Positions 5,894 through 64,000 of a stretch of DNA of 64,000 nucleotides are shown here, one piece after another. Position numbers and translations under genes: made by a program. This stretch comes from Phoronis australis. Lineage: Eukaryota > Animalia > Phoronida. Under the pieces are notes generated by a model. That model was not told where the DNA came from, ran no database searches, and saw only the letters and a program-made list of their open reading frames with translations. Numbering within the stretch: position 1 is the stretch's first letter; each line of letters starts with the position of its first letter. Location: positions 329,518 to 393,517 of the forward strand of contig NMRA01000071.1 in the NCBI GenBank assembly GCA_002633005.1. The letters are read 5' to 3'.

Positions 5894-6000
5894 GTAGCTA
5901 AAACATCGTGTTTGGAATTTTTTAATATAATTGTATTTTTATAGTAACCTGCGCTTAACTGATAAGAATTCGATCATTGATTATTTTTCTATTAGGCGAT

Positions 6001-6370
6001 ATGAGGCGATCGGGTGAAGCGGTAGTGGTATATCTGCTGGTGTTCAGTTTATCGTCGTTGACGGCAGGAAGAAAGGCGAAATATTCGCTTGGACTAAGTT
6101 CACATACAGAGCGCGCAGCCCTGTCATGCCCGCCATGTAAAGAAATTCACTGTACCCCCAAAAAGGCGAGCAAACTGAAATGTAAGGGGGGTATCACACA
6201 CGGTGTGTGTGACTGCTGTCCGGTTTGCGCCAAGTTGGAAGGAGAGCCGTGTGGCGGCGAGTGGAACTACTTGGGAAAGTGTGACACAGGACTTTACTGT
6301 GAGGCACAGAAGAACCCCAATCCGTATGGACCAAAAAATGAAGACGTGCTGGTAGGCAAGTGCAAAACAA
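6001..6370 (+). CDS. IGFBP-domain protein exon: signal peptide and IGFBP domain
   Basis: MRRSGEAVVVYLLVFSL...CPPCKEIHC...GVCDCCPVCAKLEGEPCGGEWNYLGKCDTGLYC...GKCKT; donor GTGAGT at 6371 (phase 1). Confidence 0.9.
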
Positions 6371-9300
6371 GTGAGTCAGTTTGGAATCTTATACTCGAAA
6401 TTGTCATCTACCTAAGTCAAATCACAGTCACTGATCTTACCATGGTCCATCCTGCTAAGTGGTGTTGTCTTAAAAAATAGACAAAAAAAGAGACACAGAG
6501 GTAAATACTATTATTGAGAAATATAAAAAGCCTGTTTTTTATGTTAAAATGAAGCAACATGAATTTCTCTTAAATTTAGCCCACAATTTGACCCAAAGTG
6601 GAGTTTTACTAAGTGTAGCTTTCCCTCCCTTGAAAAATATAAGAAAACAAACTTTGCCTGCCCTTATTTCCCCTTTATCTTGCCCCAAAAAATTCCTGGG
6701 CAAAATACTAAGCATTTGCCATCTATACAAATCAGGCATGTTGCTGGGCTTGAGCCTGAAACAACAAGCTAACATGGTTCATTGGTAACTGAACATGTTA
6801 TTTACCTATGCTACTAATATTCAGCTTTAAAAACAGTGTGTTTAAAATGATGGAAACATTGGGTAAATTTGGGACAAAACACTGCTTGTAATGAAAATTT
6901 AAAGGTACTGCTTCAAATTAAATTAATACAAATAGGCTAATCAAAATTATTGATTTCTGTATTGAGACCTCACATGTACAATTAAAACAGGTTGTTTCCT
7001 GGTTTACAGAGGGGAAACATATCCTATGAGGCACAGCTAATCATTGTTCTTGATCTCAGAAGGCATGGTTCTGACCACACACATTATACCCAAACTACCT
7101 CCTTGGGTTAGAGATTAGAGGCCAAATATTTGTACTGTGATGAATAAAACAATATGAAGGCTGATATATGAGATAACCCTTGATAAATGGCACCATGTTT
7201 GTAACTAGCATCTCTCATAGCCTTCACAGATAGTGTGTGTTTACTAGACCCTTGGCAAGCTCTCATTGCAATACTGTCACCAGATACAATACTGTCACCA
7301 GATACAATACTAAAGTTAAGCTTCACAAACAACTGGCATTCACATTTGAGGTTTGTAATTAAATGTCCTTTAAATCAAATGATTTTCTTAGGAATCACCA
7401 TAGTCGCACTTGTAAAATATCAAAGAGAAAATAAATAATTACAGAAAGCCTTCAACATGTGACTTGAATGTCTTTTATATAAATAATAAACTCATTTCAT
7501 AAAACACATCATCATCTCTACCATATTCTCATAGACCATGTTATACTAATGATAAGTGATTTATGTGGTCTCTCATTCAGACTGTCACCCCTCCTCCACA
7601 CTCCTATTTCTTTCTAGACAACACATGTTCTGTTAAACTACCATAATCAAATTTAATTTGAACAGAAAATTAAGAACAATAGGTGTGAATGACTACAAGC
7701 CCCAGGCTTCACATGTCATCATCCACAACACAGGCTTACAGAAGTGCACTGCAGGGCCAGAGGTACTCTCCATCAACTGTACAAGGAGGCTTGTCAATCA
7801 CCTTAAATGGAATGTGTACTAGTGACAAACAGATAGATTCCTGCAGGCCAAGTTTACCAACTCTCACAAAGGTGTGAAACACTTCTTGACAAGCGTTTAA
7901 CATGCTGCCATTGTTCTTTTTTATTCTGTTTAAACGCACTCTGGACTCCCATCATACTCATTTATATCCTATAGTCTACAAACATGCACACAACAATGTG
8001 GTCATTATCTACCTGACTTAGTGACATAGCTTTCTCTTACAACTTCCCTTAACAGATTTAACAAGTACGAAAACAGTAATCATGACAATAATAAAATAAC
8101 TATGAATAAATTAAAAACATGTCTTGCAAAACAACTGGACCCCTTTAGTGGCATGTTCTGTTATGACCATCTTGCAACTCAGTGAAATTCACAACATTTT
8201 TAGACTTTATAATAATTTATAAAATTATTTATTTGAGTGACAGTTGGTAATGGTACTTGTTACCCTACAAACATGTGACTATGCAGCAGTAATTAGTCAA
8301 CAACAAGTGTTGTTTATTAGCCTGAATGTTACTCTTCACTGTATCTAACACTTGTCCTACCTGTCAATGACACCACTACACTGTGACAATAGTTTGTTTA
8401 CAGAGTGCATTAGACTGAGCCCTACTTGCATAGGCTCAACAGTCTACTCTTATAAACTATTGTTTCCCAATATTTTGTCTGGTATGCCACTACATAATGC
8501 TATCATCAGAAGGCTACAGCTCACTGTTGGTCAGTCTTGTGTTATGGTCACACAAACCTTTTGACAACACAATGTGCTATTGAGAGGTACTACCTGTACA
8601 ATGTGCTATTGAGAGGTACTACCTGTCTTGGCTACAGTAGGTCTGCCCCCCAGGCTCTATTCCTATGAATGGACTGACTATTAGTTGTTTGGTATTAATT
8701 TACACTTTCTGCTTTCAATAGGTTGTAGACAACAGATAACAATAGAGTATAATTAAGCATGTAGATTTAATCTCCAAGTATGACTTTCATTACTATAAAG
8801 ACTAGTTTTTGCAAGGCCTGAGGCTCACTGCCAACTGGTTGCTCCTTCAAAAGCACCAAATAAATAGCTACTTAGAATAAAACAACAACAAAATCATTAT
8901 TTGTCTTTTTGTTTATGTACAAACTTTGATGAAAATCAAGCCCATAAACATTGCACAGTGTCACTTTCAAAAGAATTCATAAAGTTTTCTATTTATAAAT
9001 TCTTTTTCCTTGCCATGTCCTCACTGGTGGACTGTATAAATGGCTACTCAATCTTCTGCTTGGTGCAGTTCAGCACAAGTGATAATCATTACAGATTGTC
9101 ATCTGTTATCTCTAGAGTTACAAAAGAAATCCTGTAAAGGTCTGTGTTCATATATTAACATTATAATGTCTGGGCTGTCCACTGTATCACTGACCAGGGG
9201 TCTGTCAGTTGGGAGGTGTGTGTTGGGGTTATGGATGGGGTCTGCCAGTTGGGAGGTGTGTGTTGGGGTTATGGATGGGGTCTGTCAGTTGGGAGGTGTG

Positions 9301-36779: not shown

Positions 36780-60575
<23,796 letters not shown>

Positions 60576-61456
60576 CGTCACTAAATCTCCACCAATCATT
60601 CATGGTGTCACAGTTGTTGTCAAATCTCAAAGAATTCTGCCCAGCTGCCTGTTTTAAGTCGCTCCATTCTAGTTATGCTATACACCTTGTTGTTACGGTA
60701 ACCGTGCCTGCTGAATTGTTGGGTTGTGTAAGTGTCTCAACAGAGGGCAGCATGATCTTATACTCACAGCAGTGTACTGGAGATCGGAACAGTGCTTGAA
60801 TAGTTACAATGGTGTCCTGTAGAGGGAGCTGAGAGCAAGTCCGCTGAGCAGCAAGCCAATCTGGGAAGATTCATCCTATGTTGCAAGCCGCAGGACACAT
60901 GGATAACAGCCGCACGCTGACTCTTGTGTCCACCATAAACAATATGTCCTATCAACTCTGTGATTATTTATCGGTGATGAAGGACTTGGTGAGCTCTTGA
61001 AATGGGCATGGTGAGCTGGTATGTTGCATGAACTGACAGGGTGGATATGAGCTGGTGGAGTGCACATTATGAGCTGATATGCTGAATTTTGATGAACTGA
61101 TGTGTTGGACACATTGAACAGAATAGGATGAACTTGTCAAGCAGTTGTGATGGATTTCATCAACTGCTGTGATGAAATTGGTGGTTTGATCTGATGTACT
61201 TACTGAGCTGATGCAGTAACCATGGTGATGATGTTTGGTTTAATTTAATATGTACCAGTTTCACACTATTCACTGTTTTGGTGCCTAGTCAGTTAAAATG
61301 ATGCTTATACTTTACATAATTTTAATTTAAGTATTCAATTTAAATTTGTTAGTCATACTTAATTTGGACTAAATATAGATATAATGATGTCCAAAATTAA
61401 TAAATCAAGTAAGGCATGACCACCTATTGCAATACCTGTCTCGTGCAATTGTGGAG

Positions 61457-61763
61457 CAGAACTGTGAATTGTGGTTCAGAACTGTGAATTGTGGTTCAGA
61501 ACTGTGAATTGTGGTTCAGAACTGTTAACTGTGTACAGAACTGTGAATTGTGGTTCAGAACTGTGAATTGTGGTTCAGAACTGTGAACTGTGATTCAGAA
61601 CTGTGAACTGTGTACAGAACTGTGAACTGTGTACAGAACTGTGAACTGTGTACAGAACTGTGAATTGTGGTTCAGAACTGTGGTTCAGAACTGTGAACTG
61701 TGTACAGAACTGTGAATTGTGGTTCAGAACTGTGAATTGTGGTTCAGAACTGTGAATTGTGGT
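61457..61763. repeat. 20-bp minisatellite, ~15 copies
   Basis: CAGAACTGTGAATTGTGGTT / CAGAACTGTGAACTGTGTA units. Confidence 0.92.
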
Positions 61764-63610
61764 ACAGTTTTCGTGAAATGTGTGTGACTGCGTCAAAGGA
61801 AGTCTGCAGTAAAGAATTTCCTTACTTTGTTCAAATGAGAGGTCACTAACAGTGGTGATTGGACTTTGAGCCTCTGTTTGTGTCACAGATAGGCAGAGTT
61901 TTATGCTGCTCAAATATACCGCATTTGGGCGCACAGGTGTGTATCTGAAATAATATATCTTTAAAGTGATATTCTTTGCGCAGCTGTTTTGCATATTGTT
62001 TCATGTACTTAAGCCTCCTGTCCACGTGCTGCCATCTGTTGGCTGTAAGTGTGCATAGAACTGTGGAAGTGAAGGCCTAGAGCTATATGTTAAGTGACTG
62101 TTACTAGGGCCTTGTGCACACCTAGTCACCAGTCCACACTGATTACCATAAGTGAGAGTGTGAACACATGCCAACGTTCATCATTTTTGTGTTGAAGTAC
62201 TCATAATTCACTCAAGCAATATATTCCATATTTCCCCATAATTCACTCAAGCAATATATACCATACTTTCTCATAATTCACTCAAGTGTTGTTTCATGTG
62301 CCTTCATCCACTTAATTCCCTCCAATAGGGGCCGCTTTGGTAGATAAAGAAACGAAGGGGTGTTGTAAACAGGAGTGAAACTTTGGAAACTGTAATATTT
62401 CAAAATACACTTGATGATATCACCAATTTAGAACACGTGACGAGTTTCAGAAGTCGAATGATATCAGCATTTCGTAACTTCCATTCCTGTTCGGAGGCTC
62501 GAGTACCCATAATGCCACTTGAGTTCGCTATCACTACGGTGGGGCCATTTTAGGTGGTACTGCACCACCAAACATTAAAATTAAAAAATAATTTTTAATT
62601 GAAGATATTTGTAATTGTGTTGAATGAGCATTAGAGAATAAGTTTCGATGCGTTAAAATCCATTTTATAAAGTTTTTAACTAAAATCAAGCGAAAATAGT
62701 ATCTTTAATGTGCTGCAGGGTACAGTTTGACTAAAGGCGCTTTGTTTGCTGTAATTAACGACTGTTTTGAGGTATGCATTGAAACTAGCTTCAGTGCTGG
62801 TTTGCTTGAGCATGAGAACACAGTGTGAATCAGAAAGATGCACTTGAATGTTCAACTGTAGATTTCCTTACCGTCAAAACTGAGGTTCCCCGTACCGTAG
62901 AAACGAAACTGTTTGTATTTGCCTATTTTAAAATTGTAGTGCGTAGTTGGGAATCTGCTGCCATTTCATGCAGTCCTCAGATAAAATAAATTTGCAATTA
63001 ATTGGATTTCATATGGCCATGTTTCTGTAATAGGCTAATTTCATTAGAAAAGGCAAAAATTTTGAATCAAAATAATATTTCCTTCTCTTGGCTTGTTCGT
63101 GTCATAACGCATTTTAAATTTTTCGGCACTGGTGGAAAAATTGCATGGACTGACGACATCATTGGATTTAACGCTATGAGAGGCGACAGGATCCTGACAC
63201 ACGGCTCAGTGTTACTGCTGCCTTCTCAATGCATCAGCATGTAAACTTATATTTACCTTTCACATGGTGCATTATCAACGTGGATGTTGTTATCAGTTTT
63301 GCCAGTGAATATATCTGGAGTTTCAAGTGGAGGCTGGTTGATTCTAGTCCTTGGTTTACATTAGACGCTTAAGAAAAAAATTGACATATCTGCAGATGTA
63401 CCCGTTGTCACTATGCCACATATTTCGTAAGCCTGCAATTCGCTGTCAATTTCGCTACAAGTGTGAGCAACGATGCTTAAAGCAATTACAGTTTCAAAAT
63501 GGGAGGGTCACGTTCAGGGAATACATTTGGAGAATGTTTGTCACTGGTGGTTCTAGCAATATTTAACGGTGGAAATGCATAGAATGACTTGTTAACACTG
63601 TGGGACACTT

Positions 63611-63857
63611 GTGGTGTCAGTGGTGTCTTAGACACAGGGTTAGATGTGTAGTTAGTGTAGCTTAGTGTAGTTAGTGCTTGCACTTTCTAGCTTTCAGCTT
63701 CTACGACCACCTAGTCCTCTGAGACGAATTAGGAAGGCATATGTAAGATCCGCTTTGGTGGCCTTTAACTACCTCTAATCAAGACTCTTGCAGTACCTCC
63801 TCGTGGTACACCATGGTAACTGGGCACCCTGCGGCCCCAGGCTAAATTTTGCAAGGG
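63611..63857 (+). ncRNA. HDV-like (nested double pseudoknot) self-cleaving ribozyme
   Basis: P1 GTGGTGT (63611 or 63620)/ACACCAT 63808-14 with G1·U; P2 CTTGCA 63787-92/TGCAAG 63850-55; P3 ACC/GGT closing L3 TCCTCGT; P1.1 CC 63799-800/GG 63815-16; P4 CTGGG 63820-24/CCCAG 63836-40; J4/2 GCTAA with catalytic-position C63842. Confidence 0.8.
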
Positions 63858-64000
63858 ATCTCGGAAGAGGTTAGGCTCTTAAAGGTGCAACGTGCATGAC
63901 CCATCGGTGTATGGATATGCTCTGGCGTTCACCAACCTAACTCCCAGCTATGGGCAAATAGCACCCTTCATTGGTTGGGCTCAAGACTTACTACCTTGTC
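63611..64000 (+). mobile_element. Probable 5' end / 5'UTR of an RTE-clade non-LTR retrotransposon or RTE-derived SINE, truncated by the window edge
   Basis: Starts with an HDV-like ribozyme, as known for RTE elements. The downstream CTCCCAGCTATGGGCAAATAG resembles RTE 5'UTR sequence as I recall it (not searched). Confidence 0.5.

What the first reader, a model, noticed from the sequence alone, without database searches (positions are those of the whole stretch)
63611..63857. Complete HDV-like self-cleaving ribozyme with a long J1/2 insertion
Seen in sequence: every element of the HDV/CPEB3 fold occurs in the right order. P1 5' GTGGTGT; P2 5' CTTGCA (63787); P3 ACC (63795); L3 TCCTCGT; P3' GGT; P1 3' ACACCAT (7 bp, G·U at the cleavage site); GG for P1.1; P4 CTGGG/CCCAG; J4/2 GCTAA (C63842 at the C75-equivalent position); P2 3' TGCAAG. 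J1/2 is about 160-170 nt. Established: HDV-like ribozymes process the 5' ends of non-LTR retrotransposons (R2, RTE, L1Tc) and can carry long J1/2 inserts. Inference: this copy may be active and could free a retroelement RNA from read-through transcription. It lies on the PGGT1B strand about 3 kb past the stop codon, so it could also cut PGGT1B read-through RNA. The ribozyme class is known; this instance would be missed by gene annotation.
Basis: partly seen in the sequence, partly recalled or inferred. Interest (0 to 1): 0.85.

Follow-up and report, generated by a model that had tools for sequence, protein, structure and literature searches.

The report
Ribozyme-headed young LINE retrotransposon copy
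This is the front end of one copy of a multi-copy repeat, likely a recently active RTE-type jumping gene, that starts with an RNA fold predicted to cut itself free of host transcripts, a known arrangement, followed by a tiny predicted RNA knot whose sequence also recurs in phages and RNA viruses.

Summary
The HDV-like fold is real. Every motif is at the stated place, and my descriptor found 1 hit in the window against 0 full hits in 60 resamples. It heads a repeat: contig depth rises about tenfold from 63620, and other copies start there with different flanks. Relatives found through a downstream motif share the whole head, show compensatory changes in P1, P2, P3, P4 and J1/2, and precede endonuclease-RT ORFs of RTE-like or Ingi-like build.

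Corrections: P2 is about 12-13 bp; J1/2 is a conserved structured domain; P1 5' is duplicated (63611 and 63620), so the cut site is open. A role in cutting PGGT1B RNA is unsupported: its RNA ends near 62300-62465 and no reads cover 62762-63575. Cleavage is untested and the ORF lies beyond the window. The scan reported this kind of element before in at least 6 genomes.

Side result: the known RTE 5'UTR motif at 63943-63962 reads as a minimal pseudoknot, whose first stem covaries in phage contigs (28 of 28 paired); I found no description of it.

The parts
63620..64000 (+). 5' end of a multi-copy repeat (likely a non-LTR retrotransposon); it runs on beyond the window
   Evidence: Contig depth 10.7 on the flank against about 60-200 per bin from here on; three diverged copies start at 63620 (records 2-4); a 570-nt contig at depth 52.5 starts at 63911 and leaves the window
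63611..63617 (+). Upstream copy of the P1 5' strand; alternative G1 and cut site
   Evidence: forced folds -59.3 (G1 63611) against -59.7 kcal/mol (G1 63620). One run's contig of this locus lacks 4 letters at 63616
63620..63626 (+). P1 5' strand at the point where other copies begin; candidate G1 = 63620
   Evidence: Loose ends lie before 63620 in X1, X3 and X8; aligns with the starts of relatives
63623..63635 (+). Predicted 5-bp hairpin that competes with P1 in the 63620 register and is compatible with the 63611 register
   Evidence: Constrained folds; prediction only
63638..63780 (+). Structured J1/2 domain: closing helix P1.2 (63638-63644 with 63774-63780) next to P2, and an inner helix (63707-63711 with 63757-63761)
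   Evidence: P1.2 is 7 of 7 paired here and 9 of 9 in five relatives with other letters, imperfect in three. The inner helix has three pairs changed on both sides here against the commonest pair. A third helix of the relatives is only partly kept here
63782..63794 (+). P2 5' strand (extended)
   Evidence: Duplex -13.9 kcal/mol; 7 of 13 pairs show a change on both sides among 12 rows
63795..63807 (+). P3 - L3 (TCCTCGT) - P3'
   Evidence: Sequence; 2 of 3 P3 pairs change on both sides
63808..63816 (+). P1 3' strand (63808-63814) and GG of P1.1 (63815-63816)
   Evidence: the C22-G37 pair is invariant in 12 of 12 rows, the second pair holds in 8 of 12
63820..63840 (+). P4
   Evidence: 96% of cells paired, 2 of 7 pairs change on both sides
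63841..63845 (+). J4/2 with the predicted catalytic C63842
   Evidence: C invariant in 12 of 12 aligned rows
63846..63861 (+). P2 3' strand, with a 2-nt insertion relative to most relatives
63859..63954 (+). Segment shared with further repeat copies that have other upstream sequence
   Evidence: Summed depth rises from about 560 to 1470-2430 from 63860; a 1753-nt contig matches only 63859-63954
63943..63962 (+). Start of the conserved RTE 5'UTR domain; predicted minimal H-type pseudoknot (CCC/GGG, GCTAT/ATAGC)
   Evidence: Motif as printed in PMC5786205; pairing tests

Best explanation
The stretch is the 5' end of one copy of a multi-copy repeat, likely a young RTE-type LINE or a derivative of one, and its HDV-like fold is predicted to cut the element's RNA free from whatever host transcript runs into it. 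Shown: the fold, the repeat boundary, near-identity of the core among the main group of copies, covariation, and RT-encoding relatives. Inferred: read-through transcription by a host promoter; Mg2+-dependent cleavage 5' of G63620 or G63611 with C63842 as general acid, leaving a 5'-OH end; activation by the structured J1/2, which holds P1 and P2 together; protection or translation of the uncapped RNA by the ribozyme and the downstream knot; reverse transcription by the element's own protein or that of a partner.
For: Repeat boundary at P1 5'. The main contig of the family (247 nt, 63645-63891, depth 417.7 against 39.3 on the flank) differs at only 3 letters, all in J1/2. Covariation in 12 rows: 90% of cells paired, 11 of 25 pairs change on both sides, 0 of 500 shuffles reach this, slid controls 23-49%. 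P1 keeps 6.8 of 7 pairs in 10 distinct strand pairs against 4.9 when crossed. The best blastn matches L069 and L059 (73% over 187 nt, E 4e-22) precede an endonuclease-RT ORF without RNase H. The downstream motif is the RTE domain of PMC5786205. Extended P2 plus P1.2 matches the activating build described in PMC4908430.
Against: No cleavage assay. No pile-up of RNA ends at either G (table 6; depth under 6). The ORF is outside the window and no RT fragment lies in it. The same head also precedes ORFs with RNase H (L054, L073, L093, L098, L107), so the clade is open. This family has a 2-nt insertion and a G-U in P2 beside the core. Older copies carry changes in P1 and P2 whose partners were not listed (45 rows not shown). 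The 11 relatives in the alignment were picked for a recognisable core out of 32 nhmmer hits, and the P1 starts were picked by eye, which leans towards pairing.
Confidence: 0.82

Rival explanations
1. Same fold and same job, but the element belongs to an Ingi-like clade (ORF with RNase H), or it is a non-autonomous internally deleted derivative that borrows its protein.
For: The head is shared with RNase H-bearing elements. PMC5786205 reports the domain in Ingi-3_AC of a mollusc and bipartite derivatives in RTE and Ingi. Only 381 nt of the element are in the window.
Against: The top two blastn matches, and five of the top eight, head ORFs or ORF parts in which no RNase H was found (three of these are partial). 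The repeat continues at least about 480 nt past the window.
Confidence: 0.35
2. The fold is inherited but this family's ribozyme is slow or dead, because the P2 insertion and competing hairpins misfold it.
For: Extra TT and a G-U near the core. Both P1 5' copies have a competing hairpin. Free folds do not form P1. Reads from one transcribed copy carry G63803A in L3 (6 of 6 in X9).
Against: The main group of copies shares these features and starts at P1, which fits recent spread with a working cut. The catalytic C, L3 and P1.1 are intact here. Three relatives also have one extra base at that place.
Confidence: 0.2
3. The copy has been kept by the host to cut PGGT1B read-through RNA and so help end or regulate its transcription.
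For: Same strand, 3045 nt after the stop codon at 60573-60575; intact core.
Against: PGGT1B RNA ends more than 1.1 kb upstream and no reads bridge the gap in 3 runs. The intact core is explained by youth, since other copies are near-identical. No orthologous insertion in another species was seen.
Confidence: 0.06

Closest known systems
HDV-like ribozymes at the 5' end of RTE, Ingi/L1Tc, R2, R4, R1 and LOA retrotransposons (PMC5786205 parts 1-3 of 5 read; PMC6765202 and PMC3774820 passages read; Webb 2009 and Ruminski 2011 not held, known only through these citations)
   Same: Double-pseudoknot topology, position at the element's 5' boundary, conserved downstream and variable upstream sequence, long J1/2.
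   Different: New host (PGGT1B best matches bivalves; group not resolved), new family, 2-nt P2 insertion, duplicated P1 5' strand; activity not tested.
drz-Agam-2-1 of Anopheles (PMC4908430, parts 1-2 of 4 read)
   Same: P2 extended to about 12 bp and a base-paired P1.2 domain in J1/2.
   Different: No sequence comparison made; kinetics unknown here; the 5' linker is 11 nt in the 63620 register.
[quoted passage not shown]
   Same: The 20-nt motif at 63943-63962 matches the printed 5' terminal motif, apart from the short linker before AAATAG.
   Different: The paper gives no structure (0 occurrences of 'pseudoknot') and the parts read mention no viral occurrence.
Minimal HDV-like ribozymes of phages (theta ribozymes; name recalled, paper not read)
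   Same: The same ACC-TCCTCGT-GGT-N7-GG-TAA core occurs in 33 viral loci; 5 of 10 scanned have tRNA genes nearby.
   Different: Those have short J1/2 and short or no P4 and no LINE context.

Membership tests
HDV-like ribozyme | P1, P1.1, P2, P3, P4 in nested double-pseudoknot order | tested here: met
HDV-like ribozyme | Catalytic C in J4/2, conserved L3, G at position 1 with a G-U or G-C first pair | tested here: met
   C63842 invariant in 12 of 12 rows; G-U at both candidate starts
HDV-like ribozyme | Pairings kept by compensatory change | tested here: met
   11 of 25 pairs; P1 table; rows partly chosen for a recognisable core
HDV-like ribozyme | Match to an Rfam HDV-type model | tested here: not met
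   a 160-nt J1/2 and pseudoknots are poorly handled by such models (my knowledge), so this is weak
HDV-like ribozyme | Mg2+-dependent self-cleavage 5' of G1, lost in the C-to-U control | not testable with these tools
   RNA reads too few to show an end
RTE-clade LINE | Dispersed multi-copy family with different 5' flanks | tested here: met
   contig depth is only a rough guide to copy number (about 9-11 near-identical copies by ratio)
RTE-clade LINE | Conserved RTE 5'UTR domain | tested here: met
   63943-63962; the domain also occurs in some Ingi and R4 elements
RTE-clade LINE | Single ORF with AP endonuclease and RT, no RNase H, grouping with named RTE proteins | tested here: inconclusive
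   Outside the window. Met in domain make-up by relative L069; no named RTE reference among the 120 listed homologs; no tree built
RTE-clade LINE | Simple-repeat tail and target-site duplication | not testable with these tools
   3' end outside the window; no genome held
Ingi-like LINE | ORF with endonuclease, RT and RNase H | tested here: inconclusive
   Seen in five relatives that share part of the head; the name Ingi is assigned from domain make-up, recalled

The most novel reading that the evidence does not exclude
The 20-nt motif 80 bases behind the ribozyme is a minimal pseudoknot used across kingdoms. The same sequence and fold sit in RTE and Ingi-like 5'UTRs, near the start or just after a stop codon in RNA-virus contigs, and between genes of many phages. 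It is one RNA device that shields uncapped or cut RNA from 5'-to-3' decay or holds a ribosome. The LINE head would then be a two-part machine: a ribozyme that makes the end and a knot that guards it, swapped as a unit between LINE clades.
Probability: 0.3. Interest if true: 0.7.

Novelty: new member of a known kind. Interest (0 to 1): 0.38.

Why it matters
As a ribozyme it adds one more family to a known class: a probably young LINE head in an invertebrate, with a conserved J1/2 domain and two possible cut sites. It is a handy natural test of the model that duplicated P1 strands shift cleavage sites and lengthen J1/2 (PMC3774820). The side result could matter more. If the conserved RTE 5'UTR motif is a working pseudoknot shared with phages and RNA viruses, it would give a structure and a testable job to a domain known only as sequence, and it bears on how uncapped LINE RNA survives and is translated. 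RTE UTRs are also being used in gene-insertion tools (PMC13708176, passages read).

Tried and rejected
No whole genome was held, so copies were judged from laid contigs and reads. An exact 24-base core gave 0 hits in metagenomes. A looser core pattern in viral contigs found only short phage-type folds. Rfam found nothing relevant at the locus and only tRNAs plus one weak unrelated match near the motif in 32 loci. A hammerhead reading of CTGAGA at about 63719 was dropped: no GAAA follows in the sequence, and the stretch aligns to a variable hairpin of relatives. No RNA holder was listed among indexed runs. X10 laid 0 records. X5 and X6 (other organism labels) each gave one contig at depth 2 and 4.5; not used as evidence of host range. 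No pile-up of RNA ends. No RT fragment and no second copy of the head elsewhere in the window. The homolog search of L069's ORF gave no clade name. In prokaryote genomes the motif gave 9 matches, near my rough chance estimate of about 4; two look like animal repeats and several lie inside ORFs, so no enrichment is claimed there. A degenerate pattern added only 3 copies of one probably chance site. Webb 2009 and Ruminski 2011 are not held. The supplement of PMC5737381 could not be read and may describe the phage form of the motif. Three scripts stopped on errors; reran, and the rows printed were used for the alignment. Rows left out of the core alignment: L054 and L046 (my pattern missed them or they were not tried), the many copies from one marine assembly (8-nt L3), and the shorter family L044/L056/L086.

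Full report
Observation. My own HDV descriptor found this one site on both strands of the 64-kb window. In 60 Markov resamples it found 1 core and 0 complete folds. Rfam did not detect it and plain folding energies are unremarkable, as expected for a double pseudoknot with a long insert. Three details change. P2 forms a 12-bp duplex with one bulge, 63782-63793 with 63849-63861, and T63794 can pair with A63846 as in relatives. The P1 5' strand occurs twice, at 63611 and 63620. The family has two extra T after J4/2.

Setting. The upstream gene is PGGT1B (Pfam Prenyltrans in a first and a last exon), with its stop codon at 60573-60575. Its exon matches bivalves best, at 74-79%, with a hemichordate at 77%, so the host is probably a mollusc or a related invertebrate. 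No genome was held. I therefore laid public runs of the same species label on the region.

It heads a repeat. In run X1 contig depth is 10.7 on the flank and about 60-200 per bin from the bin that holds 63620 onward, and three contigs have unrelated sequence before 63620. In X3 the flank depth is 39.3, three diverged copies begin at 63620, and one 247-nt contig at depth 417.7 covers 63645-63891 with only three differences, all in J1/2. The tool warns that depth is not a copy number; as a rough ratio it suggests about ten near-identical copies plus a few old ones. Depth rises again at 63860, where other repeats share 63859-63954. A 570-nt contig from 63911 leaves the window, so the element is at least about 860 nt long. 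T63749 and T63754 were not seen in any record that covered them, so they may be private variants or assembly errors.

Which G is the start? The shared sequence begins by 63620. However, the loose-end consensus before 63620 ends in GGT in all three runs that show it, and X3's contig of this locus lacks four letters at 63616, which leaves a tandem GTGGT unit. The family's end may therefore reach a few bases further upstream. Forced folds of the two registers are equal within error (-59.3 and -59.7 kcal/mol), and each P1 5' copy has its own competing hairpin. [quoted passage not shown] The cut site is open.

Relatives and covariation. A scan with the motif at 63943-63961, not with the ribozyme, returned 100 metagenome and 16 viral loci. 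Of these 116, 32 matched the window's head by nhmmer at E<=0.01; the best blastn hits were L069 and L059 at 73% over 187 nt. I aligned the 11 in which my pattern found a core. With the HDV structure imposed, 90% of 300 cells pair, 11 of 25 pairs change on both sides, 0 of 500 shuffles reach those values, and slid partners pair at 23-49%. The tool notes that relatedness inflates the shuffle test. For 12 relatives with a visible 5' end, P1 differs between families yet keeps 6.8 of 7 pairs on average, against 4.9 when strands are crossed. Starts were picked by eye; for seven copies from one assembly the start is also fixed by different flanks.

J1/2 is not a random insert. A helix closes it next to P2: 7 of 7 pairs here, 9 of 9 with other letters in five relatives, imperfect in three. 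An inner helix has three pairs changed on both sides in the window against the commonest pair, while a further helix of the relatives is only partly kept here. PMC4908430 (parts 1-2 of 4) shows that an extended P2 with a stable P1.2 speeds the mosquito ribozyme by up to about three orders of magnitude. The same build here favours activity; that step is inferred.

What element? L069 has one 1099-aa ORF with endonuclease and RT and no RNase H; L059, L047, L089 and L046 show the same domains in broken or partial form. That is the RTE build. L054, L073, L093, L098 and L107 share part of the head but also encode RNase H, an Ingi-like build (name recalled). PMC5786205 (parts 1-3 of 5) prints the downstream motif as the start of a domain conserved in RTE 5'UTRs, also seen in one Ingi and one R4 element, and lists RTE and Ingi among the clades with 5' ribozymes. 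The window holds no ORF of the element, so RTE is likely but not shown.

The PGGT1B idea. In three RNA runs (18-19% of each read), reads of the PGGT1B strand reach depth 1-17 over 61800-62243 and fall to zero by 62466. No read on either strand lies in 62762-63575. The few reads on the element (depth under 6) come from both strands, and several carry foreign flanks or other letters, so they derive at least partly from other copies. No pile-up of ends was found. Rare read-through could still be how this copy is transcribed, but nothing supports a host role.

Mechanism. Most likely: a host transcript runs into the copy, the fold cuts 5' of G1 using C63842 and Mg2+, and the freed, uncapped RNA is translated or serves as template and is inserted elsewhere with the same 5' end. 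This follows the established model (PMC6765202, passages). The fold, boundary and covariation are shown; transcription, cleavage and mobility are inferred.

A side result. The motif CCCAGCTATGGGCAAATAGC (63943-63962) can form an H-type pseudoknot. The base after the 19-letter search pattern, which the pattern left free, is C or T in 111 of 116 loci and in 53 of 58 distinct contexts, as the second stem requires. The exact pattern hit 16 viral loci against 0 and 0 for reversed and complemented controls; one of the 16 lies inside an ORF. A form with a longer linker hit 95 more. When the middle pair of stem 1 was forced away from C and its partner left free, 28 of 28 hits paired, 27 by Watson-Crick change, in 21 distinct flank groups. 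For the outer pair 53 of 60 paired, mostly as T-G. For the first pair of stem 2, A-C occurred 7 times in 183 against about 28 expected under independence. The phages are related, so these are not independent events, and stem 2 is less firmly shown than stem 1. Contexts: 11-12 nt after a stop codon in a dicistrovirus-like contig and three others, 43-45 nt before the first ATG in two tombusvirus-like contigs, before terminator-like hairpins in phages of about 70 kb, and after a Shine-Dalgarno-like stretch (label recalled) in gut phages. Rfam gave no match for it, and six literature searches (listings only) showed no description beyond the RTE sequence note. The supplement of PMC5737381 could not be read and might hold it. 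Its function is untested. A block to 5'-to-3' decay or a ribosome stop fits most contexts but not clearly the terminator-proximal ones.

Verdict. A real, probably working HDV-like ribozyme at the head of a young LINE family: a new member of a known kind, reported by this scan in at least 6 genomes (20 notes). Interest 0.38, most of it owed to the open cut site, the conserved J1/2 domain and the shared mini-pseudoknot.

Noticed in passing
window 63943-63962; loci L052, L075, L079, L134-L149, L168-L262, L272-L359: The conserved RTE 5'UTR motif reads as a minimal pseudoknot and recurs in phage intergenic regions and RNA-virus contigs, with covariation in stem 1. L136/L191 carries three tandem variants.
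   Followed up: partly
L054, L073, L093, L098, L107 against L069, L059, L047, L089, L046: The same 5' head or part of it precedes ORFs with and without RNase H that are only about 22-33% alike, which suggests 5' module exchange between LINE clades.
   Followed up: partly
window 62544-62708: Another multi-copy repeat: contig depth about 100 against 10.7, with several loose ends.
   Followed up: no
window 63554-63606: A short piece just upstream of the ribozyme shared with other loci in run X3 (summed depth about 120 against 39).
   Followed up: no
window 60575-62465: PGGT1B has a long 3' UTR by RNA coverage (seen from 61800 on), ending near 62300-62465; no AATAAA lies there, only GATAAA at 62343 and AATACA at 62404.
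   Followed up: partly
window 58343-59299: Near-perfect 15-bp tandem array of 64 copies starting right after an N, possibly an assembly join, in a PGGT1B intron.
   Followed up: no
window 41119-41487 (-) and 5959-6480 (+): An exon resembling a CDK7-type kinase and a cysteine-rich exon resembling an IGF-binding domain (labels recalled, not searched).
   Followed up: no
L266, L268: Two bacterial genome bins hold what look like animal SINE/RTE-type repeats, probably host contamination.
   Followed up: no
L018, L026, L027: Phage minimal HDV-like folds lie beside tRNA genes with a CTA anticodon.
   Followed up: no
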